A stretch of 64,000 nt of DNA from assembly GCF_021028975.2 (NCBI RefSeq), contig NC_059432.1, forward strand, positions 81,034,001-81,098,000. The letters run 5' to 3'. Under the pieces are notes generated by a model. The model made no database searches and had not been told where the DNA came from. It was given only the letters and a program-made list of their open reading frames with translations. Origin of the DNA: Sphaerodactylus townsendi (taxonomy: Eukaryota). The position numbers were made by a program, and so were the translations under genes. This document shows positions 1 through 64,000 of the stretch, piece after piece; the first letter of the stretch is position 1; each line of letters opens with the position of its first letter.

Positions 1-296
1 AGAATAGAATCACTAGTAGAATCTCTTGAGCTTCGCCTCTTCAATCTTAGGATAAAAGATAATGAAAACAGGAACAGAAGTCTGTTTTTTAAATACCTGT
101 GCTCTGTAGGATTCATATTTCCATGGGAAAACACAGTGATCCCTAAAGAGAGTACAGAGCTTCAGTCACACGCTATTATGGCAAATGATAGAAGGCATTT
201 GAAAACAGGTTATCTGTAGATTAAACCACCATCACTACCTACAGTCCTACTTATGCCTAATAAAGGTTATGTTATTGTATTGTATTGTATATCTAC

Positions 297-18849: not shown

Positions 18850-21800
18850 CTACTGGATGTCCTCCCGCTTGTGGAAGCTGATGCTGGCATATGCACTTAA
18901 TTCATCACTCAAGTGGCTATTCCCACAAGGCTGATTAGGAGATTTAGGTGGCTGATGCTGCTGCGTCGTCTGCTTGCCCCCTAGCAGAGAAGTGCTCTCC
19001 TGAAGGTGGGGGTGGTGATGTGGGCGCGGATTAAAATCCTTCACTAAGTCCAGGTCGATGTAATTGAGCCCATTCTCAACGCCTCCCCCAGGCCCAACCA
19101 CAACCAGCTCCTTCCTGATGGTTGGAACGAGGCCCGAGGAGGCTCCCGGCTCCCCAGCCACGGGCTTGAGCCAGACGTTTTCGAAGGAGGCTGAGCTGTG
19201 GCGCTTTGCCTCATCAGGACCTCCTCCTGGCCCATGGCGCAGGGCTGAGGCCCCAAGGCCACCACTAGGAGTGGCGGAGGAAGCAAACGTCTCGGAACTG
19301 TGACGCCGCCGGCCCCCCTGTGGGTCTGCGCGGATCACTTTGGCACTCTGGCTGCTGCGGCTGGGGCTGACGTGTATGAAGGCGCTGCTCATTCCTGGGC
19401 CCCCCACCATGGTTGAGGAGCAGGAGTGGGGCAAGGCTGCAGCCAGCTCGCCTGGCTGAGTCTGGGGATGCGGGGAAGGTAGCCCCACAGCAGGTGGGCT
19501 TTTTTCAGGCCTACCACGGCCCATCCTCATGTCGGCATAGCTGAGCAGAAGGGCCGGAGGGGAAGGTGAGGGGTTATGGCCACAAACTATATATTGCCCC
19601 CCACTGCCCAGCTGCATACTCATGTAGTCTCGGCCACCAGTGGGGACTGCCCCGCCCTGATTGGACTGCATGGACGCCAACCTAGACGGGCAGGCAGCTC
19701 CCCAATCCATATTCATGTACTCCTCTGAACCGGATCCAGCTTCTCCATGGGATGAAGGCGACGGAAAGGCTGGCTGCCTGAATTCAATGTTCACATACTC
19801 ACCAGGACTTTTGGGCTCTGGGAGCTGCTCCCGAGCACGCGGCAACGTGCTGGCCTTAGGGCCATCCAAAGACAGACGAGTAGGTCTGGCCAGGCGGCTC
19901 TTGGTCCGCACAGCCATGTCCACAGTATAAGAAGCAGCAGGCTGCAAAGGTTGTGTTTGGGGAGGAACAGAAAACCCACCACCCTCCTGACCCACAGGGC
20001 CACCAAGGCTATCACTACTAGTGGAAGAGGAGGAGTCCTCAGCGGCAGCATACAGCAAGCGCCCAGAGCTCAGAGACATGCGCATCTGGGTGCCACCCTC
20101 TTCACCAGTCCTGCGCTGCACATGTTTGAAGGAACGTGGCAGGGAGAAATAAGAGTAGATGGGTTTGTGGTGGGACTGAGCAGGGCCTTGCAGGGATGCC
20201 TCTTCTGGGCCTGGATGTCCTGAGCTGGTGAAGTAGCAGTCTGGAGGGGTGCTAGTAGCAGAGCCACTGGCTGGAGACATATTGATGTAATCACTGCCCC
20301 CACTTGGCAACTTCCCTTCATTACTCTCCACAGATAATTTGGGATCATGCCTTGTCCCATTCATCCATAGCTTGCTGTAGACAGTGGGACCACTGTCGGG
20401 AGAGCAACTCCCACTTGGAGACATCATCATGTAGCCATTGGAATCCACTACGGCCTGTACATGGCGGCCTCCTCTCCCAGGGTTGATGATCTGCTGTGGG
20501 GCAGACACACTCTTGGGGCTCATGGGCATGTAATCACCACCTTTGTGAGCACTACCACCAGTGGGGATGGGGGCCACTCCTGGCAACATGGGCATGTAGC
20601 CATCATCGGTGTGTGGGGTAGAACTGGTCTGGTGGTGGCCGCCCTCCACGTGGTGCATCTCTAGACACTCCTCAGGATAAGAATGTGTTGGCACAAAGGC
20701 AGAATGTCGAAAGGAAGAGAGCCTACCACCACCACAGGAATACGAGGGGAGCATCTCGGTATATTCCTCAATGGAGGCCACTGAAGACTGTGAGGGTGTC
20801 TTCTGGTGGGAGATGGTTGGGGAGGTACCAGCTGAATGAGTTCGTTTCCTGAAGACTTTATCTAGATCACCTGCATCCTCGCTACCAAGCCGGGGGCAGC
20901 ATGGGACACCAGGATAGCGGGTCTGCTGCTGAAGATGGCAGGCGCGAGGGGTAAAATGACCATTAGGGGCTGTGACACTGCAGCAGGATGAAGCAGCCTT
21001 ACCCCCCATACATATGTAGTTACTAAGCTCCTCATCCCCCCGGGCAGGTGGGGTGTGTCCCAGGGAGTCTGGGGTAACACTGCGAAAAGAGCTCCGGAAG
21101 TCACAGGGGCTGGATCCATACTCATCAGAGGAGATGAAGCCCCCATCACTAGGGGAGCCAGAAACGGAAGCACTGGACCTACGTGGGAAGAGGCAGTCAG
21201 AAGTTGAGCCGTGGCCGCTGGTGCTGCTGGATGACAGGCTGACTGGACTTGTGGCCGAAGGGGAGCAACGTGAAGAAGGCATCGGGATGGAGCGGCTGTG
21301 GTTGAGAGGAGGGTGAAGCCTGGAGTTGCCGCGGTGCCTGTGTGAGTGGGTCCGGTTGGCACTTGGACTCACAGGGCTTCCGTCCACTGAAGCTGGCCTG
21401 GACATAGTGCCTTCTCCATCACTGGAGGCTCTGACGCGAAAAGAACTGGGTTTTCCCCCTGTCCCTCCACCACCTCCCACACCACTGCCAGCAGGAGAGG
21501 TGGCAGTCACGCTCTCAGTCCTGGACCTACGGCTGAGTCCCACCTGGCTGGGCGGGGGGTTGCTGACATGATGCCTGCTGCGGAGAGGCACAGAAATGGG
21601 ATTGGAGCAATTGGAGGAAGATTGGCTTTTGCTACGGGGCCGGAACTCCTCACTCATAGCCCGCATAGCCTCCAAGATGGTCTCATGCATGTTCTGTGCT
21701 ACTACTGAATCATCTACCTGCATCCAGAACTCACCTGGTCCGGTGACTGCAGAGCGCCCCACCTCAATGAAGAAAAAGTTCTCTGAGTGGCCACACCGGC

Positions 21801-22437
21801 GTATGTTGAGCAACTGCAGCACCACCGCCGCCGCATCAGAGTTCAGCTTCACAAAACTGATGGTCTTGTTGGTTAGGCACAGGCGGTAGATGCCAATCAG
21901 ATTTTTAGTCTGGCCCAGACCTTTAGGCTTCAGGATCACTTGCCAAACTTCTTTGAAAGCTGGCCCGGGGGCCATATCCCCATAGTTATCCTCCCTGGCT
22001 TCTCCCATCCCGACACTCCCACCTCTGACAGCGACATCCCCGTGGTGGTGGTGGTGGTGGTGGTGTTGGTAGTGATGGCTCTTGGCCCGGTTGTGCAGTT
22101 GTAGCAGCGCCTGGTACCAACTCTCTTGCTCAGGCTCACTGTCAGCAGCAATGGCAAAGTGCTCATCCTTGGTGTAGAGAGCCACCAGATGCTTATTTTT
22201 GGAGTCTGCCCTTTTATTGATGTTGAAGCAGCTCTCCAGCGGGATAGAGCGCTTGGGAGCCCCTGACTTGTGCCTCCATTTCTTTTCATTCTCATAGTAC
22301 TCCAGTCGGGCGGGTCCCGACTCGCTGGCTGCCCTCAGCACGAAGAAGCGCTTATGCATGCTCTTGGGTTTGCGCAAGTAACCCACCTTCCTGACATCTG
22401 AGAAGAAGCTCTCGTTATTATCTGTGGGGCTCGCCAT
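18850..22437 (-). CDS. IRS1: insulin receptor substrate 1 (single coding exon, 1195 aa)
   Basis: The true start is MASPTD at ATG 22437 in a strong Kozak context (CCACCATGG); the ORF track's TTG start at 22701 is upstream of it. Contains a PH domain (VRKVGYLRKPKSMHKRFF), a PTB domain (FKEVWQV...ETILEAMRAMS), YxxM PI3K sites (YICM, YTEM, YMPM x2, YMMM, YINM, YMNM, YMSM, YADM), YVNI (GRB2), and YIDL and YASI (SHP2). Confidence 0.98.
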   Translation of the reverse strand: MASPTDNNESFFSDVRKVGYLRKPKSMHKRFFVLRAASESGPARLEYYENEKKWRHKSGAPKRSIPLESCFNINKRADSKNKHLVALYTKDEHFAIAADSEPEQESWYQALLQLHNRAKSHHYQHHHHHHHHGDVAVRGGSVGMGEAREDNYGDMAPGPAFKEVWQVILKPKGLGQTKNLIGIYRLCLTNKTISFVKLNSDAAAVVLQLLNIRRCGHSENFFFIEVGRSAVTGPGEFWMQVDDSVVAQNMHETILEAMRAMSEEFRPRSKSQSSSNCSNPISVPLRSRHHVSNPPPSQVGLSRRSRTESVTATSPAGSGVGGGGGTGGKPSSFRVRASSDGEGTMSRPASVDGSPVSPSANRTHSHRHRGNSRLHPPLNHSRSIPMPSSRCSPSATSPVSLSSSSTSGHGSTSDCLFPRRSSASVSGSPSDGGFISSDEYGSSPCDFRSSFRSVTPDSLGHTPPARGDEELSNYICMGGKAASSCCSVTAPNGHFTPRACHLQQQTRYPGVPCCPRLGSEDAGDLDKVFRKRTHSAGTSPTISHQKTPSQSSVASIEEYTEMLPSYSCGGGRLSSFRHSAFVPTHSYPEECLEMHHVEGGHHQTSSTPHTDDGYMPMLPGVAPIPTGGSAHKGGDYMPMSPKSVSAPQQIINPGRGGRHVQAVVDSNGYMMMSPSGSCSPDSGPTVYSKLWMNGTRHDPKLSVESNEGKLPSGGSDYINMSPASGSATSTPPDCYFTSSGHPGPEEASLQGPAQSHHKPIYSYFSLPRSFKHVQRRTGEEGGTQMRMSLSSGRLLYAAAEDSSSSTSSDSLGGPVGQEGGGFSVPPQTQPLQPAASYTVDMAVRTKSRLARPTRLSLDGPKASTLPRAREQLPEPKSPGEYVNIEFRQPAFPSPSSHGEAGSGSEEYMNMDWGAACPSRLASMQSNQGGAVPTGGRDYMSMQLGSGGQYIVCGHNPSPSPPALLLSYADMRMGRGRPEKSPPAVGLPSPHPQTQPGELAAALPHSCSSTMVGGPGMSSAFIHVSPSRSSQSAKVIRADPQGGRRRHSSETFASSATPSGGLGASALRHGPGGGPDEAKRHSSASFENVWLKPVAGEPGASSGLVPTIRKELVVVGPGGGVENGLNYIDLDLVKDFNPRPHHHPHLQESTSLLGGKQTTQQHQPPKSPNQPCGNSHLSDELSAYASISFHKREDIQ

Positions 22438-22749
22438 GGTGGAATGAAAGAGGCGCCGGTGCAGCTCCTCTTGCGACTGGCAGCTTCTGACACAGGAGAG
22501 CGAGTCTTCAACACGCAGCAGCCCAAAATACAAGTCATGCAGCAGCAACCAAAACAGCAAAATATCTCGGAATCCCTGTTTTCCAAAATGCCATGGGAGG
22601 AGGAAAGGGAGAGCGGCAAGCCAGAAACAGCTGTTCAAGCGGCGGAACCCTTCCTCCAGCTCCAGAAGCAGAGTGACTTCGTGCTGCCGTTTTATTCCCA
22701 AAGACCCCTTAGCAGGAGAAACGTGTCTTTCAAAAGTCCAGTCCCGATT

Positions 22750-24130
22750 AAGACGCAGGAAAGCCTCGTCCCGAGAGCAGCCGCCGAGAAAGGGGAGAAG
22801 TGCATCATTTCATCCGTGCAGGGCTGGATTCCTGGCAGCCTAATGGGGTTCCCCCCGCCGCTCCTCTCCCAAACAAACAGCCCCCTCCCCTTCTCGGGTT
22901 ACCCTTAGCAAGAAGCAATTTCAGACGCCGATTAAATATCCTCTCGGGAAGGAGGGAGGCACCGGGGAGGGGGGGGTTGACGCGTTCAGCAAAAGTCTCG
23001 TGGACAGCAGGCGAGCCCCTCTTCCAAATAATAGTAATAATAATAACAACAACACGCAAGCCACCTCGTCTCCTCCCCGCCAAAATGTCTTACAGTCTCC
23101 TCTGTGGGTGAGGAGGGGGGAAAAAAACCCAAAGAAACCAAATCCCAGGGAAGACTTCCTCCAAAATACACACACGCGGATATATATATATGTATCTCAG
23201 CGCTGAGCTCGCAGCTTCTTCAGCTCGTGCAAGAGGAGCAGGCTGGCGGCGACCCCATTCAGTCCCGTCTGGTTAGGGAGAGAAAGTGCCATGCCGACAC
23301 CAAACGTAAGCAGGCAGCTGCCGGAGCGAGGAGACGCTGCCCAAGTGGAGGGAGAGGCGGAGGAGACCAAGGGGCATCCTCGGGGCTGCTGTTGCTGCTG
23401 CCGCGGCTTCCTTCTCCTCCTCCTCTTCTTCATTCCAGTCGGGAAAGTCTCGGAGGGCAAAGCCCTTGTTGCCTCCTCTCGCGCCCCAGAGCGAGGGCAG
23501 GCGAAGGCGATGCGGCCGCGGGCTTCGGCTTGTCCTCCTCGGGCTGCCGCAGGAGCCGCAGCTTCGCGGACTTTCTCCACAGCCCCGAACCAAAACAAGC
23601 CGCGGCGTCTGTGTTTACGAGTCCGGCCCCCTCCAGCCGCCGCCGCCGCCGCCGACACTCAGTCTCACTCCAAGGAGAAAACCACGTGACGGCGCCGATG
23701 CGTGGACCGTCCCCATCTCCAGCCCCTTCACCAGCGGCAGCCACAGCAGAAGCTCAGACAGTCGAACTTGGTAGCGCGCGGCATTCGAACCCGCCCTCGC
23801 TTTCATTCAGCACCGCAGCGACCGCTCTTACCTTTGGGCGCTCCGCCGCGCGAAGCCTCGGGAGGGGGGCGCCGTCCTATTGGAGCACCTGCCTGTCTTT
23901 CAAGCCGTCGTAGGCTCTTGAAAGCCAGACGGCGAGGCACCCAGGCTTGGTTGAGAAGCGCGGCGTAGTAGTATTTTTTTTTTCAACTAAAGAGTGGGGA
24001 GGGAGCGGAGAGACGCCATTCAGTGTTATTTATAAACGAGGGGGCTGTGAATCTCGCCCTCTCCCTGAATTGCGGCTGCTGGGATTGAAGCAGAGGCGGT
24101 CGTTGTGCTGCGGTCGCAAGGCAGCCTATT
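22750..24130 (-). promoter_or_regulatory. IRS1: CpG island: IRS1 promoter and 5' UTR
   Basis: High GC and CpG density, a (GCC)n run near 23636-23655, E-box CACGTG at 23683-23688 and minus-strand CCAAT at 23879-23883. The exact TSS cannot be determined. Confidence 0.8.
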
Positions 24131-45061: not shown

Positions 45062-45494
45062 ATGCAGAGGAGAAACAAATCATCAAATGTCGGATTGCTT
45101 CTGCTGCTTTCTCAGATCTATCAAGTTGGATTTAACAGAATTCCACCTGTCACACTTGTGACGTTGGCAGTAAACATTTTCCTCTTTTTGCAACCCCTGA
45201 AACATCTCGAGCAAACATGCATTAGTGTTGAAAAGTGTCTTTACATGAAAGATTGGCATCGTCTGTATCTTTCACCTTTTCATCATGCAGATGACTGGCA
45301 TTTATATTTTAATATGGTCTCTCTTCTTTGGAAGGGAATTAATTTGGAAAGAAGACTGGGAAGTACATTGTTTGGATATATAATTGCAGTATTTTCTGTG
45401 CTAGTTGGAGTCGTATACATGGTTTTGGAAATTGTATTTGCAGAACTTCTGGATGATCCTATGTATAAGCTAAGTTGTGCTGTAGGTTTTTCAG
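45062..45494 (+). CDS. RHBDD1: RHBDD1 (RHBDL4) first coding exon, 433 nt of CDS
   Basis: MQRRNKSSNVGLLLLLSQI...IPPVTL...DWHRLYLSPFHHADDWHLYFNM...CAVGFS, with the catalytic Ser at codon 144 in GFSG. Donor TCAG|gtaaga. The acceptor is ambiguous (candidate AG ending at 44991 or 45015). Confidence 0.95.
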
Positions 45495-47537: not shown

Positions 47538-47670
47538 GAGTGCTATTTGCTTTGAAAGTCCTGAACAACCATTATCACCCAGGAGGGACTAGCAACATCA
47601 TGGGAATACAGGTCTCAAACAAATATGCATGTTGGTTGGAACTTCTAGCCATTCATCTACTTAACCCAAG
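47538..47670 (+). CDS. RHBDD1: RHBDD1 coding exon 2 (133 nt)
   Basis: Acceptor tttag|GA; encodes GVLFALKVLNNHYHPGG...YACWLELLAIHLLNP; donor AG|gttagt; phase matches the flanking exons. Confidence 0.95.
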
Positions 47671-55702: not shown

Positions 55703-55791
55703 GAGCTCTTTTGGAGGACATCTGGCAGGTATTCTTGTTGGATTGATATACATTAAAAGTCCTTTGAAGCCAGTCATGGAAGCATGTGCAG
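55703..55791 (+). CDS. RHBDD1: RHBDD1 coding exon 3 (89 nt)
   Basis: Acceptor ccttttag|G; encodes (R)SSFGGHLAGILVGLIYIKSPLKPVMEACA with the catalytic His at codon 195; donor G|gtacag. Not in the ORF track. Confidence 0.95.
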
Positions 55792-57992: not shown

Positions 57993-58016
57993 GTGAAAGA
58001 AACAGCGACGGCTCAA
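57993..58016 (+). CDS. RHBDD1: candidate 24-nt RHBDD1 microexon
   Basis: Long polypyrimidine tract ending ctttctcag|, donor CAA|gtacgt, phase 1 at both ends, reading GERNSDGS(R). Confidence 0.55.
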
Positions 58017-58327
58017 GTACGTAACTTTTATTCTCTTGTAAAATCTCTTCTAATGTTGTGTTTTTAATAGGAAAGAGGAATTTTAAATAGATTCCAGTCT
58101 TCCTACTCTGGAACCTTTCTAAGCTCAGATATATCATGGGTGTCATATGTGTGCATTTCTGTTCATACCTATTTTTGCAGCTGTCACTTCATTTCCCAGG
58201 CAATGCACCTTAAGTTGCTTAAAACAAAGAAAAAATGAATAAAAACACAAATGCACATATGTACACTTTGACTAAGGAGATTGCATATTCCTGGTAAAAT
58301 AAATGGGGATTTTGTTTAGAACCAAAA

Positions 58328-58470
58328 AAGAGCCCTGCTGGATCAGACCCATGGCTCATCTTGTCTAGCATCCTGTCTCACGCAGTCGCTAACCAGTTAC
58401 TCTGAAGGGCCAGCAACTGGGCATAGAGGTCAAGGCCCTCCTGATGTTGCCTCCTGGCACTGGTACTCAA
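58328..58470 (-). mobile_element. CR1 LINE 3' end fragment
   Basis: aagagccctgctggatcagacc...tctagcatcctgtctc matches the recalled reverse complement of a reptile CR1 3' end. Confidence 0.6.
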
Positions 58471-59046
58471 AAATTTATGTGTTAATCAGTTGAGGTGAGG
58501 GCTGAATCTGGTGCCCTTTTCCAAACCGCTGTTCTGTGAGATTCCAGTTAATGATCAGGCTACACAAGTGCAAAACCGATAGCTGAATTTGCCTGCAGTC
58601 TCAGGGATGTGATTCAGTACACAGCCAGAGTAGCTAGCTGATCCAGGGCAATAGTCTTTATATTTGTACTTTCACTGGGTTTGAGCCCCCATAGCCGTGG
58701 CTTCAGTGGTTACATCCTCAGCTGCTGCGTGCTGGTCAACTGAAGAACTGTTTGGTCCCCTGCTACAACTGACTATCATCCGCACCTTTAGAATTTTGGT
58801 CTTTTCAGGATGTTCTGGTAATGTCCTTACTTTTGTAGGAGTTTTGTGGAACTCTTTTCTCTGTGTGAGTTTACACTTGAGTTTACACTTGAACCTCTGC
58901 GTGAGTTTACACTTGAACCTTTGGAGAAGTCCCCTCTCCTTGTTTTATTCTGAGGTTACCCCATCCTTATCCCAACTAATGCCCTGGCCTCCAGATCTTT
59001 TAGTCTCCCTCGCCACACACACACACTGCCTCCTGTCTGTCTATCC

Positions 59047-59194
59047 CAGGGGTAGGGAACCTGCGGCTCTCCAGATGTTGAGGAACTACAATTCCCATCA
59101 GCCCCTACCAGCATGGCCAATTGGCCATGCTGACAGAGGCTGATGGGAATTGTAGTTCCTGAACATCTGGAGAGCCGCAGGTTCCCTACCCCTG
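59047..59194. mobile_element. palindromic hAT-type MITE, 148 bp (copy 2, inverted relative to copy 1)
   Basis: 8-bp TSD gtctatcc (59039-59046, 59195-59202); one substitution relative to the reverse complement of copy 1. Confidence 0.92.
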
Positions 59195-59747
59195 GTCTAT
59201 CCTGTATGACCTCTTAAGGAAAGGATCTGGTCTGCTTACTCTCACATGGTTCCTCATCCCACAGCATCCCTGTCTCCTTCCTGGTTCTGTTTATATAGGC
59301 AGTGGCTACCATTACATCACTTCCAGTTGGCCAGAAAGTAGCACTTTAGGACCCGTTTGGCTGGTGGCTGGGCCTTCTTGTACTTTCTCATGCTTGGTCT
59401 AGCAGTAAGTGCAAATAGGATATTTAAAAAGAAAAAGTTTATGTACATGAGTATTTTCTCTTACAAATTTTAGCCTGAACATGAGAAAAATTTATGCTTT
59501 TATCTGGAAACAAGAATATAAAAGATGAAAATAGTATTTGTAACACGTAGGCCTTCTTGTCATTGTAGCCCACAGATTTTTTATAAAATATGTGTCTGAC
59601 AATTTCAGTTTAATATTTCTTATTTGCGCACAATTTATTCATTTATTCATTTCTTACTTGCTTAAAACACTTATTTCCTTCTAAAGTGATTTTAAAGATT
59701 CACTACCAGAATCATAGATTGATTTTTATTTTATTTTATCTGTATAG

Positions 59748-59867
59748 GGAGTTTTAGTTATTCTGGTTATCCGTCCTACACACCAAGAGACTATAATATG
59801 TACACTGATGGATTGAGTGAAGAGGAACAGTTTCAAAGGGCAATGAGAAACAGTCTGAATGATGCAG
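59748..59867 (+). CDS. RHBDD1: RHBDD1 coding exon with the ubiquitin-interacting motif (120 nt)
   Basis: Acceptor tgtatag|GG; encodes SFSYSGYPSYTPRDYNMYTDGLSEEEQFQRAMRNSLNDA (UIM SEEEQxxRAxxxSL); donor G|gtaaga. The final exon with the VCP-binding motif was not found in the window. Confidence 0.9.
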
Positions 59868-60664
59868 GTAAGAATCTTCCCATTTTGGCTATATTGAGAA
59901 TACAGGAATAATTTTTCATGTTTCTTCAGGGAAGGCTTACAGCCTTAAAAACAATATGGAGAGCCTCTTGAGTTTCTATTGTATTGCCCCTCAGTTCTTT
60001 CTATATTATATAGCATTACAATTTCTTCTTGACTGAGACTAGGATGTTCCTGGCCTGGTTCCTTCCAAGATTTGAGTTCATATGAACATCCCATTATAAG
60101 GAATGAAAATTTTCACAAAATTCAAGATATGCGTGAAATTTCTCACCTTCGTAGCAGGAAGTCACACACCCTTAACAACATAATGGGGTGGGGGGGGGTC
60201 TATGACTTTAAGCCACAGCTTCTTTACTTCTGTGCAGCATTTCCTGTGGTCATCGGCAGCTACAGGAATGGTCTCATCAAGAGCTTCAGGACAGCTAGAA
60301 ATTTGAATCATTACCATGAATCTGCTGCATTCTTGATCTGGTGTCCCTCTGGTTATTCTTTTCACCTCTCTTCTCAGAGGACTGTAATGCAGGCACTTTT
60401 CTGCAGGAAAATAATCTTGGTGGAGGATAAGTTTTTTAGAAGGCAGCGGGAGCCAGGATCTGCAAAAGACCTCTTGTGGGTAGTAACACCAAAGTACATG
60501 AAGCCTCAGATACAGAAATAAGGTACATATGCTCGGGTAGCATAGTGTACAGTAATTTGGTCTTATTTTCTCATACTGGGCATTTATATATATATTGCAG
60601 TAATGTTGAATACAACTAAGGAGTTTATTTATTTAGATTTCATGAATACAACAATTGGTACATT

Positions 60665-60776
60665 GGGGTGTTGCGTGGTTTCCGGGCTGTATGGCTGTGT
60701 TCTAGTAACACAGCCATACAGCCCGGAAATCACACAACATCCCAGTAATTCCGCCATGAAAGCCTTCAACAATGAA
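60665..60776. mobile_element. truncated Penelope-like terminal repeat in inverted arrangement
   Basis: Same family as 62505-63218; inverted arms of about 40 bp; flanking direct repeat tggtacatt (60656-60664, 60777-60785). Confidence 0.7.
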
Positions 60777-61689
60777 TGGTACATTTTCACTAAACTAGAA
60801 CTGATGCATTTTATTGGCCGTTGTGGCCATGGTCTAGTAGTTTTTACTCCTAATTAATCACCTGCCTCTATAGGCCTTAACAATACATTTTATGTTCTCA
60901 AAGCAGTAAAATAAGTTTTTGGTTTGATAAGAAATGAATATTGCAGATGTTTGAATTTTTCTCAGAACTTCTAGGGAGTTTTTTTGTGAAGGAAAATTAC
61001 CCCCCCCCTTTCAAAATTTCTGTAAAATGTATGTTTCTATCTGTGGAACAAGTATCTTGAAGCAATGAATAGATCTCATTTCTTCCTGCCCTGGCCAGCT
61101 GTATGATATTTCACTATAATATTGCTATTAGAATGTGGCTAACCTCAGACTGACTGAAATGATAACTTACAAAATACCTTCAAACCACATGTCTGGAACT
61201 AAAACGTATAACCTTGGTAAAAAGCTCAGAGAGTTACTTTAGACAACTTCATAAAATCTAGAATCAGTACAGGAATTAAGTTTCTATCTCCTATCCCCTG
61301 TTGAATGTATTTTACATAAAGTAGTTTAAAATGACTTTTTTTAGTTAGTCGCTTCCTGTTTCAAATGGCAAGATGTAGTTGCGTTCTCATTTGTAAATTC
61401 ACATTCACCCAGTTCCAAGGGCAAGTAAATCATCTGTATTATTACCATTAAAAGTCTTCTGGACATGAGTGATTTGATTTTTATATATTTATTCAAAAGA
61501 CTGTATATATAAAATAACAAAATGCAAATACATAAATGGGAAGGATTGCTAGTGAGGGAACAGTGAACGAAACAGGAAAATCTTCAGTGGCTAATAGAAG
61601 ACAGTCATAGATGGACAAACAGATCTCCCTGGAATTTCACAAGTTTGGTCTATTCCTGAGAAAAAGCATTATTGGTTTGCTACCCGTTA

Positions 61690-62390
61690 TTGGGTTTCAG
61701 AGGCACCTAAAGCAGGCCCTCCAAAGACTGTAGTGATCGAGTTGGTTGATATGGGAGTAGGCAATCTGTGTAGTATTGTGGCCTCAAGCCATATGTGCTT
61801 TAAGATCAATATTAGCATCTTGAATTGTGCCCAGAAGCAAATTGGCAGCCAGTGTAGGTAAAACAACTCATTTCAATCAGCATTCTAGTGACATCATTCT
61901 GTGCGAACTAGCTTTTTGGGCACTTCATGGACAGCCCTTTGTAGAGCACATTGGAGTGGTCTTGTCTAAATGCTTCCAGGACATGCATCACAGTGGTGAG
62001 ATCTTATTTTCATAGGAAAAATTGCAGCTGGCTCACCAGCTGAAACTGGAGAAAGGAGATCCTGACCACCACTCCCATCTGCTTGTCCAACAAAAGTCCA
62101 GCAGCAGCCCAAGCTATGGACCTGCAAATCTGGATGGAGTGTGAATCCATCCAGAACAGGAAATATCTGAATTCCTGGGTGAATCATTCTGCTAGTAGTA
62201 CATACATTTTGTCCAGATTAAGGTTCAGTTTGTTTGCCCTCACTCATCTCAACACTGCCTCCTGAGTCTGGTTCATGGTTTCCCAGCCTCCCTGGGATTC
62301 GTTGGAAGCACTAGGTAGAGCTGAGTGTCATCTGCATTTTGACAGTAAACTAGCCCAATCTTCAGATGACTGTTCCCAGTAGTTTAATAT
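61690..62390 (-). mobile_element. decayed L2-clade LINE fragment
   Basis: The minus strand gives ADDTQL and NKLNLN remnants. Confidence 0.65.
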
Positions 62391-62504
62391 TATTATATAC
62401 ATTCGCAAGAGCAAGAAAAGTTTAATCTATATGATCCTATTTTTTAATTAAATTACAATAAACTTTGTTTGAAATGTTCAAAATAGCTAAGTAATACAGC
62501 CATT

Positions 62505-62636
62505 GTATTGTCGAAGGCTTTCACGGCCAGAATCACTGGGGTGCTGTGTGGTTTCCGGGCTGTATGTCTGTGTTCTAGCAGCATTCTATCCTGACGTTTC
62601 GCCTGCATCTGTGGCTGGCATCTTCAGAGGATCTGA
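62505..62636 (-). mobile_element. Penelope-like element terminal fragment
   Basis: Homologous to 62996-63218; flanked by the direct repeat agccatt (62498-62504, 62637-62643). Confidence 0.75.
62588..62632 (-). ncRNA. minimal type I hammerhead ribozyme motif
   Basis: Minus strand: AUCCU-CUGAAGA-U-GCC(loop)GGC-GAAA-C-GUC-AGGAU, giving a 5-bp stem I, an intact core and a palindromic ACGU stem III. Confidence 0.7.
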
Positions 62637-62995
62637 AGCCATTTTCTTTGGATGTTTACAGAGCTCTGGGGAGGGTATCCATTGATCATTAACTTCAGTG
62701 GATCTAGAAAGCTGTAACTTGGCTTAAGATAGCACTGTTACATTCCAGGATCAATCTGAAAACAGAATGTATTGTAAAACATTGTATTCCACGAATAAGC
62801 ATAAAAATATACTCACAGGTAGGCCTCCTGTGACTCTGGTCCTCTCATTGGTGTTCACATTGGGGAGACTGGCTTGTGCTTATTTTGTGCACAGTCCCAC
62901 AGGAAGTAGGAACTGGTCAGACAAGAAATGCTATAGGGCAGCTATGTAACAAAATGATTATGTTAAAAAAAAATCCTCAAAGCAATAAAAAGTTA

Positions 62996-63218
62996 ATGTA
63001 TTGTCATAGTCTTTCATGACTGGAATCACTGGGGTGTTGTGGGTTTTCTGGGTTGTATGGCTGTATTCCAGTAGCATTTTCTCCTGATGTTTCACCTGCA
63101 TCTGTGGATGGAATTTTCAGAGGATCCTCTGAAGATGCCAGCCACAAATGCAGGCGAAACGTCAGGAGAAAATGCTACTGGAACACGGCCATACAGCCTG
63201 GAAAACCCACAACACCCC
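62996..63218. mobile_element. Penelope-like element terminal repeats in inverted arrangement
   Basis: Inverted arms of about 95 bp centred on GGATCC at 63122-63127; imperfect flanking repeat aataaaaagtta / aatgaaaagtta. Confidence 0.75.
63125..63167 (+). ncRNA. minimal type I hammerhead ribozyme motif
   Basis: UCCU-CUGAAGA(63129-63135)-U-GCC...GGC-GAAA(63156-63159)-C-GUC-AGGA; predicted cleavage after C63163. Confidence 0.7.
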
Positions 63219-64000
63219 AATGAAAAGTTAGTTACGTAACAAAAGCAAGTTAAAAATAAATACCTGAACAGAGTGAGAAATTTACCAGGTTGGTTAAATG
63301 TTTAGAATTCCAAAGGCTGAATCTGTTACCATGTATTTTGGAGAGATGCTTTGTAAAAATTCAAGTATTGTGGCAGTTTAGACCATGAAAGCAGTCTTTG
63401 CTTATTTTCCATTTCTTTGTTTTGTTTTCTTGGTGCTAGCTACTGTTTCAAAAGAACTTCAAGCCCTTTTTTACAATAATAAAATCACAGTTTAATTATT
63501 TACAATGTATGTAGTGCTAACTCCTCATTTATTTTTTAAAAGTTGCTAATTGGCAAAAATAAAGCCTCCTTAGAATACATCATGCACAATTAGTGTAACT
63601 GAATTATTTCTGTTGATTATCCATTTTTTAGTAAGTTAGGGTTTTTTTGTCATCCACATACGTGATACTTTCTTCTGAGACATTTTAGATTTCCAGCCAA
63701 TATCACATCCCAGGGAAGGGGTAAAATACTGATCTTGAAACAAGTATGTACAAAAGACAACAATTTCAGTAGTTTGCAAAAAAAATAATTTTTTTTCACC
63801 TCTGTGTGTCTGTTTTTATCCCATTCTGTCCTCCATGAAGTTCTTGTTGCTTGTGTAATAAAAATATCATAGGGCATAACCTGGGACCCAACATCACCTC
63901 TCAGAGGGACTGCCATGACTAAGGAGAAGGGGCTGCCATGGCACCCCTGAGGCTCCCCTTTCTAGCCCTGCAAGCTCCAGGGAGGCTAAACCTGGCTGCT

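What the first reader, a model, noticed from the sequence alone, without database searches (positions are those of the whole stretch)
62505..63218. Cluster of Penelope-type insertions with intact minimal hammerhead ribozyme cores inside a RHBDD1 intron
Seen: two copies keep the full core CUGANGA...GAAA...GUC with stem I and a GCC/GGC stem II (62588-62632 on the minus strand, 63125-63167 on the plus strand). A third copy, in the left arm at about 63082-63124 (minus), has core changes (CUGAAAA, GAAACAUC). Established: Penelope-like retroelements carry minimal type I hammerheads whose stem III is reduced to a palindrome (here ACGU) and which cleave best as dimers. Inference: the plus-strand copy is in the sense orientation of RHBDD1 pre-mRNA. 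It could cleave the intron, but it forms one arm of a hairpin of about 95 bp and has another antisense copy about 500 nt upstream, so competing folds could silence it.
Basis: partly seen in the sequence, partly recalled or inferred. Interest (0 to 1): 0.7.

Follow-up and report, generated by a model that had tools for sequence, protein, structure and literature searches.

The report
Penelope transposon stubs with hammerhead motif
Three short leftovers of a very common lizard jumping gene lie in a gecko RHBDD1 intron and carry a real minimal hammerhead (self-cutting RNA) motif that has over 11,000 intact copies in this genome; the one copy on the gene's own strand is predicted to be locked in a hairpin and is likely silent, so the locus is ordinary.

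Summary
There are two intact minimal hammerhead cores (62589-62631 minus, 63125-63167 plus) and one broken one, in the last RHBDD1 intron. They are 94-132-nt stubs of a Penelope/Poseidon retrotransposon. A full-length copy elsewhere encodes RT plus a GIY-YIG-type endonuclease from the ATG inside the ribozyme. The motif is not special here: 11,743 exact core matches genome-wide (reversed control 0). Inserted copies lose core bases as fast as neighbouring bases (12/736 vs 33/2207, p=0.86). The 'cluster' is two separate insertions, each with its own target-site duplication. The hairpin is the family's routine head-to-head insertion form, not a regulatory fold. The sense copy is predicted to pay 37-45 kcal/mol to leave the hairpin, has no sense-strand dimer partner in the gene, and its anole counterpart cleaves only with the transposon protein. 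Intron cleavage is therefore unlikely; no RNA run was available to test it. Copies' 5' ends pile up at a predicted TATA/Inr start (43 of 100), not at the cut site (5 of 100 within +28..+33). This suggests uncut templates. The scan found this family before at other loci of the same genome.

The parts
62505..62636 (-). Insertion 1 (copy A): solo 132-nt stub of the Poseidon-type element, element positions -15 to +117 (A of the ORF ATG = +1), with the tail
   Evidence: 6 differences from a long genomic copy, L067; 7-bp duplication AGCCATT on both sides
62589..62631 (-). Intact minimal hammerhead core of copy A, antisense to RHBDD1; predicted cut between 62593 and 62592
62498..62504 (.). Target-site duplication AGCCATT, left copy (right copy 62637-62643)
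62997..63124 (-). Insertion 2, left arm (copy B): tailed stub with a broken ribozyme (G8>A, G10.1>U, C11.1>U, G16.2>A)
63125..63218 (+). Insertion 2, right arm (copy C): untailed stub, -10 to +84, joined head-to-head to B at the GATC palindrome
   Evidence: 11 differences from B in 94 nt
63125..63167 (+). Intact minimal hammerhead core of copy C, sense to RHBDD1; ATG of the element ORF at 63135-63137; predicted cut 63163/63164
62984..62995 (.). Target-site duplication of insertion 2, left copy (right copy 63219-63230; 11 of 12 bases match)
63026..63223 (.). 99-bp hairpin formed by arms B and C
60665..60776 (.).
59868..64000 (+). Last intron of RHBDD1 (rhomboid-related protein 4); it continues 11.8 kb past the window end. 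Coding exons upstream at about 45062-45494, 47539-47670, 55703-55791 and 59750-59867

Best explanation
These are short stubs of a Penelope/Poseidon-clade retrotransposon that carry the element's own minimal hammerhead motif, and the sense-strand copy likely does not cut RHBDD1 pre-mRNA because it is predicted to be trapped in a hairpin. Shown: the motif overlaps the start of the element's RT-endonuclease ORF; each insertion has its own target-site duplication; head-to-head pairs are the commonest short form; inserted copies lose core bases at the background rate. Inferred: the element's enzyme nicks AT-rich DNA and starts reverse transcription inside its RNA at about +83..89 or +113..118. It copies to the RNA's 5' end, a predicted TATA(-41)/Inr(-13) start just upstream of stem I. 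One such product gives a solo stub (A); two products joined head-to-head give the hairpin (B+C). Because most stubs run through the cut site intact, the templates were mostly uncut. The ribozyme is likely under selection only in active master elements, where it probably processes tandem transcripts with help from the element's protein.
For: Full-length 819-aa ORF from the ATG inside the ribozyme, with RVT_1 E=1e-12 and a C-terminal GVY..CxC..YIG endonuclease motif, and with the same inverted 5' arm. Its geometry matches anole PAc: cut 26 nt after the start codon, RT start at +111..118. In 100 flank-ascertained copies, 3' ends fall at +83..89 (46) or +113..118 (47), and 17 of 18 paired arms are one tailed plus one untailed. 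5' ends fall at -17..-11 in 43 of 100 (p=2e-23 against uniform), at +28..+33 in 5 (p=0.21), exactly +30 in 1. 26 of 40 short inverted pairs have a duplication of 7 bp or more, against 1.2% in 1531 shuffled flank pairs. Non-CpG core substitutions 12/736 vs loop/flank 33/2207 (p=0.86); G12 (CpG) is mutated in 14 of 67 copies. Between subfamily majorities the ribozyme differs at 3 of 43 positions, against 10/10 upstream and 10/27 downstream. Hammerhead fold of C costs 3.7 kcal/mol alone and 37-45 kcal/mol with the left arm.
Against: No cleavage assay and no RNA data, so silence is predicted, not shown. Rfam hammerhead models did not hit. Pfam and PDB searches did not recognise the endonuclease; it is called by motif. 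No direct alignment to PAc was possible because its GenBank supplement is unreadable here. The transcription start is inferred from motifs and end positions only. The 100-copy sample is the first 6.6 Mb of one chromosome and favours young copies; B/C carry slightly different diagnostic bases. Subfamily majorities rest on 15, 8 and 4 copies, ungapped. Only 4 of 29 short solo units showed a duplication by my automatic test. Copy C is better preserved than B (4 core/stem changes in B, none in C).
Confidence: 0.9

Rival explanations
1. Copy C cleaves RHBDD1 pre-mRNA in its last intron, during a short co-transcriptional window or with help from the transposon protein or a host factor, and so affects splicing or 3'-end formation.
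For: The core is intact and in sense. The insertion appears shared with a related organism 1.6% divergent. PAc ribozyme cleavage is switched on by its protein.
Against: The left arm is transcribed first and the hairpin has no loop; stem I/II pair probability is 0.0000 once the arm is present. There is no second sense copy with a core in the gene. A Schistosoma monomer min-HHR gave no cleavage. The PAc RNA needs the first 172 nt of the ORF for insertion activity, and the authors place protein binding there; C has 84. 43 of 67 sampled copies keep the 12-base core, so intactness needs no selection.
Confidence: 0.04
2. The biologically active part is the 99-bp hairpin, as double-stranded RNA (ADAR editing, small-RNA precursor, or an effect on splicing of the last intron), not the ribozyme.
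For: Hairpin MFE -165.5 kcal/mol, z -20.5. Copy A can also pair with C across 489 nt.
Against: Rfam miRNA hits are all below gathering scores and reflect only the hairpin shape. Such hairpins are the routine insertion form in this genome. The arms have drifted to 88%.
Confidence: 0.05
3. The stubs are a self-propagating non-autonomous family (retrozyme or MITE-like palindrome) copied as a unit, not independent truncation products.
For: The head-to-head joint recurs at the same GATC in several copies.
Against: Joint positions vary from copy to copy. No head-to-tail tandem of the unit is present here, which retrozymes require. Both arms are plain ORF-start sequence of the autonomous element, and a full-length copy has the same inverted arm.
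Confidence: 0.05

Closest known systems
PAc / Poseidon_Ac of Anolis carolinensis (Frangieh et al. 2024, PMC11167929)
   Same: ORF starts at stem II of the hammerhead; cut site 26 nt after the start codon; copies end at about +111..118, with a second class about 30 nt shorter (tail); no helix III; RT plus C-terminal endonuclease.
   Different: The passages read do not report a pile-up of 5' ends at a TATA/Inr site. Activity of this family's ribozyme is untested.
Minimal type I hammerheads of metazoan Penelope-like elements (Cervera and De la Pena 2014, PMC4209133)
   Same: Short helix I, bulged base before stem II, G10.1-C11.1, palindromic 15.2-16.2, thousands of dispersed single copies, pairs on opposite strands 100-700 bp apart, reported in turtles and snakes.
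   Different: Stem II here is 3-4 bp plus an optional 2-bp extension, shorter than the 7-8 bp of the Schistosoma motif. This family is very uniform in sequence.
Inverted pLTR / tail structure of EN+ Penelope-like elements (PMC8557442, PMC3846280)
   Same: 5'-truncated copy with an adjacent inverted copy, a 30-40-bp tail on one end only, palindrome at the joint, target-site duplication, TATA and Inr in the pLTR.
   Different: Here both arms are reduced to about 100-130 nt and the form is the majority of short insertions.
Non-LTR retrozymes (10.64898/2026.07.22.740005, as defined there)
   Same: Non-coding repeats with a type I hammerhead derived from Penelope pLTRs.
   Different: Retrozymes are head-to-tail tandems with a ribozyme in each unit; these copies are solo or head-to-head.

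Membership tests
Minimal type I hammerhead (PLE min-HHR) | Core CUGANGA / GAAA / UH with helices I and II | tested here: met
   Copies A and C; copy B fails
Minimal type I hammerhead (PLE min-HHR) | Bulged base between 9 and 10.1, G10.1-C11.1 pair, palindromic 15.2-16.2 | tested here: met
   U bulge, G-C pair, ACGU in A and C (criteria)
Minimal type I hammerhead (PLE min-HHR) | Match to an Rfam hammerhead covariance model | tested here: not met
   No hammerhead family among 41 matches at E<=10. The published motif is defined by a descriptor without helix III, not by Rfam
Minimal type I hammerhead (PLE min-HHR) | Self-cleavage (as dimer or protein-assisted) | not testable with these tools
   Needs an in vitro assay; folding predicts sequestration of copy C
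EN+ Penelope-like element, Penelope/Poseidon clade | Single ORF with RT, DKG motif | tested here: met
   L063:4298-6754, 819 aa, RVT_1 E=1.1e-12; ADKG and YVDD seen in the translation
EN+ Penelope-like element, Penelope/Poseidon clade | C-terminal GIY-YIG endonuclease with two cysteines between GIY and YIG | tested here: met
   By inspection GVYRIPCSCGQVYIG and later histidines (criterion); Pfam and PDB searches gave no endonuclease hit
EN+ Penelope-like element, Penelope/Poseidon clade | No CX2-5CxxC zinc finger in the RT-EN linker (separates it from Neptune/Nematis) | tested here: met
   No such cysteine motif between RT and EN in the translation (criterion)
EN+ Penelope-like element, Penelope/Poseidon clade | pLTR with hammerhead, optional 30-40-bp tail, inverted 5' arm | tested here: met
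EN+ Penelope-like element, Penelope/Poseidon clade | RT phylogeny with named clade members | not tested
   No reference PLE sequences were held; the PAc file is unreadable
Non-LTR retrozyme | Head-to-tail tandem with a ribozyme in each unit | tested here: not met
   A and B are direct but 493 nt apart with unrelated spacer and separate duplications; B/C are head-to-head

The most novel reading that the evidence does not exclude
The stubs are an in vivo record of the Poseidon insertion reaction. Both cut DNA strands are extended from the two internal RT start sites (+83..89 and +113..118) on uncut RNA and run off at the element's TATA/Inr transcription start (-13). So the hairpins map the promoter and show that the ribozyme cut is not part of normal insertion.
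Probability: 0.5. Interest if true: 0.4.

Novelty: new member of a known kind. Interest (0 to 1): 0.13.

Why it matters
As a locus it matters little: it is one of more than 11,000 intact copies and shows no sign of host use. The family is of modest use to transposon specialists. Its very many short, dated insertions give end-position statistics that fit the only in vitro Penelope system (anole PAc). They bear on two open points: how the inverted arm and the one-sided tail arise, and whether the ribozyme cuts before insertion.

Tried and rejected
Rfam scan: no hammerhead model hit; the miRNA hits are hairpin-shape matches below gathering scores. RNA evidence: no RNA holder listed, so ends at 63163/63164 could not be examined. 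ESM Atlas gave no answer for the endonuclease part. PAc supplements: three text files searched with no hits for TATA, promoter, transcription start, inverted or HHR; the figure PDFs hold almost no text and the GenBank file is unreadable, so Fig. S2 may bear on the 5'-end claim unseen. A splice acceptor (CAG at -13..-11) as cause of the 5'-end pile-up in this subfamily was considered and set aside: solo copies abut unique flank or their duplication directly, share no upstream exon, and several run to -15..-17. An earlier scan note reports spliced copies in other families of this genome; I did not test that. Enrichment of 5' ends at the ribozyme cut: 5 of 33 ends between -10 and +52 fall at +28..+33, p=0.21; a small minority of cut templates is not excluded. 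Selection on the core in inserted copies: not seen. A second RHBDD1 copy elsewhere: none among 12 scored candidates apart from a 38%-identity paralogue-level hit. Literature searches for gecko/squamate Penelope hammerheads and for 5'-end/transcription-start mapping listed nothing specific in this library; most subscription papers are not covered.

Full report
Observation. A descriptor scan of the whole window finds two minimal hammerheads, 62589-62631 (minus, copy A) and 63125-63167 (plus, copy C). A third (63082-63124, minus, copy B) has G8>A, G16.2>A and a lost G10.1-C11.1 pair. B and C form a 99-bp, 88% complementary hairpin with no loop, MFE -165.5 kcal/mol, z -20.5. Rfam lists no hammerhead family among 41 matches at E<=10 in 58000-64000.

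Host gene. The exon at 45062-45494 matches Pfam Rhomboid. Its best named relatives are gecko rhomboid-related protein 4 (94% to Euleptes). tblastn with these proteins places further coding exons at about 47537, 55700 and 59750, and the last one 11.8 kb past the window end. The stubs therefore lie in the last intron, and only C is in sense. A blastn with copy A over the window plus 60 kb downstream finds no other copy between 63224 and 86503, and none upstream of 60661. C thus has no sense-strand partner with a core in the gene.

Identity of the repeat. A 35-nt pattern of the intact core has 11,743 exact matches in the 1.81-Gb genome, reversed control 0. A 31-nt downstream flank pattern has 18,009. 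One of 30 close copies carried an endonuclease-like frame upstream. Searching with it gave a copy with an 837-codon open frame, whose 819-aa ORF begins at the ATG inside the ribozyme. It has RVT_1 (E 1.1e-12), DKG, a C-terminal GVY..CxC..YIG motif and no linker zinc finger. By the criteria in PMC8557442 (passages) this is the Penelope/Poseidon clade. The endonuclease call is by motif only; Pfam and PDB searches did not hit it. PMC11167929 (parts 1-2 of 4 read) describes the anole Poseidon element PAc. Its ORF starts at stem II, the cut lies 26 nt after the start codon, and RT starts at +111..118. Its ribozyme cleaves only with the protein, ribozyme mutants insert normally, and no RNA-seq reads end at the cut. 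The gecko geometry is the same: ATG 63135-63137, cut after 63163, copy A ends at +117. PMC4209133 (parts 1-2 of 4) reports such motifs in thousands of copies, including opposite-strand pairs and reptiles, and no cleavage by a monomer.

Anatomy. A spans -15 to +117 between AGCCATT duplications. B+C is one insertion between 12-bp duplications (11/12 match), joined at the GATC palindrome, B tailed and C untailed. A third inverted insertion without the core lies at 60665-60776. A differs from C at 11 positions and has its own duplication, so the cluster is separate events. In 89 evenly chosen 10-kb stretches (890 kb) there were 73 alignment pieces, with head-to-head pairs recurrent. Among loci of the 100-copy sample, 69 of 103 units were short: 26 of 40 inverted pairs and 4 of 29 solo units had a duplication of 7 bp or more, against 1.2% of 1531 shuffled flank pairs. 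The inverted arm and one-sided tail are described in PMC8557442 and PMC3846280 (passages). Contigs of a related organism (27 substitutions in 1702 nt) bridge B's outer junction by 44 letters and reach 21-26 letters into A and C. The insertions likely predate that split; the A and C overlaps are under the tool's 31-letter bar.

Is the core protected? I took all of the first 100 flank-pattern matches (first 6.6 Mb of contig C1; this favours young copies). 67 span the ribozyme; 33 were left out of this count because they do not. Non-CpG core positions carry 12/736 substitutions, loop, bulge and flank 33/2207 (Fisher p=0.86). G12, in a CpG, is changed in 14 of 67. 43 of 67 keep all 12 core bases. 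Two intact cores in three copies is what drift gives. Between subfamily majorities (15 and 8 copies, ungapped) the ribozyme region differs at 3 of 43 positions, against 10/10 upstream and 10/27 downstream. Selection appears to act in active master elements, not in inserted copies.

Can copy C cut? Alone, the hammerhead fold costs 3.7 kcal/mol and stem I has about 4% pairing probability. With the left arm, which is transcribed first, it costs 37-45 kcal/mol and both stems have probability 0.0000. With no dimer partner and only 84 nt of ORF sequence, cleavage of the intron is unlikely. This is a prediction; no RNA run was listed.

What the ends say. In the 100 copies, 3' ends fall at +83..89 (46) or +113..118 (47), and 17 of 18 paired arms are one of each. 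5' ends fall at -17..-11 in 43 copies (31 of 59 with an inverted neighbour, 12 of 41 without; p=2e-23 against uniform over -17..+52). 24 extend further upstream, 33 lie between -10 and +52, and 5 of those are at +28..+33 (p=0.21). TATATA starts at -41 and an Inr-type TCAGATC at -15 (the consensus spacing is recalled knowledge). I infer that RT runs from the internal start sites to the 5' end of an uncut transcript, which agrees with the PAc result. That both nicked strands are extended to make the two arms fits PAc's extension of both strands. I took this double-priming wording from an earlier scan note and tested it only through the tail asymmetry and duplications. Two literature searches listed no paper on these ends in geckos.

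Other papers seen: bioRxiv 10.64898/2026.07.22.740005 (part 1 of 5 and passages) for the retrozyme definition; PMC5389986 (passages) for the RHBDL4 p97-binding motif.

Verdict. A real motif in a new member of a known transposon clade, with an ordinary insertion structure and most likely inert at this locus. The scan has noted the same family at many other loci of this genome (22 notes fit the look-up). Interest 0.13.

Noticed in passing
L044:1847-1963 (last RHBDD1 coding exon, 11.8 kb past the window end): The exon is one base shorter than in gecko relatives after the FWFP codons. The spliced frame stops four codons later, and the old frame holding the p97/VCP-binding motif also carries a stop (motif). 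All four runs, two organisms, show the same letters. Euleptes and Heteronotia proteins keep the motif; the Paroedura picta protein (P0004) also ends without it. Possibly repeated loss of the p97-binding tail of RHBDL4 in geckos; no RNA check.
   Followed up: partly
window 60665-60776: A further inverted Poseidon stub without the ribozyme core, between 9-bp duplications.
   Followed up: yes
L063:4204-6754 (G000:C3:109204-111754): Poseidon-type copy with an uninterrupted 819-aa RT-endonuclease ORF and an inverted 5' arm; several other long open copies (L065-L067) are near-identical to it, so the family is young.
   Followed up: partly
L064:3870-8950 (G000:C9): About 5 kb of a short-period G-rich tandem array directly upstream of a 5'-truncated Poseidon copy, keeping a 2,028-codon frame open; a real minisatellite or an assembly artefact.
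   Followed up: no
L049-L142 (random stretches): Older subfamilies keep the ribozyme but have a GUU triplet in place of GUC and different sequence upstream of stem I.
   Followed up: partly
window 59068-59173 and 61765-61915: Another hairpin element at about 59070-59170, and a repeat-depth peak at about 61765-61915; both look like other transposon fragments.
   Followed up: no
window 18853-22809 (minus); L045-L048: Single-exon IRS1-like ORF (PH and IRS domains) upstream of RHBDD1 and collagen Gly-X-Y exons on the minus strand downstream, the usual IRS1-RHBDD1-COL4A4 order (recalled).
   Followed up: no
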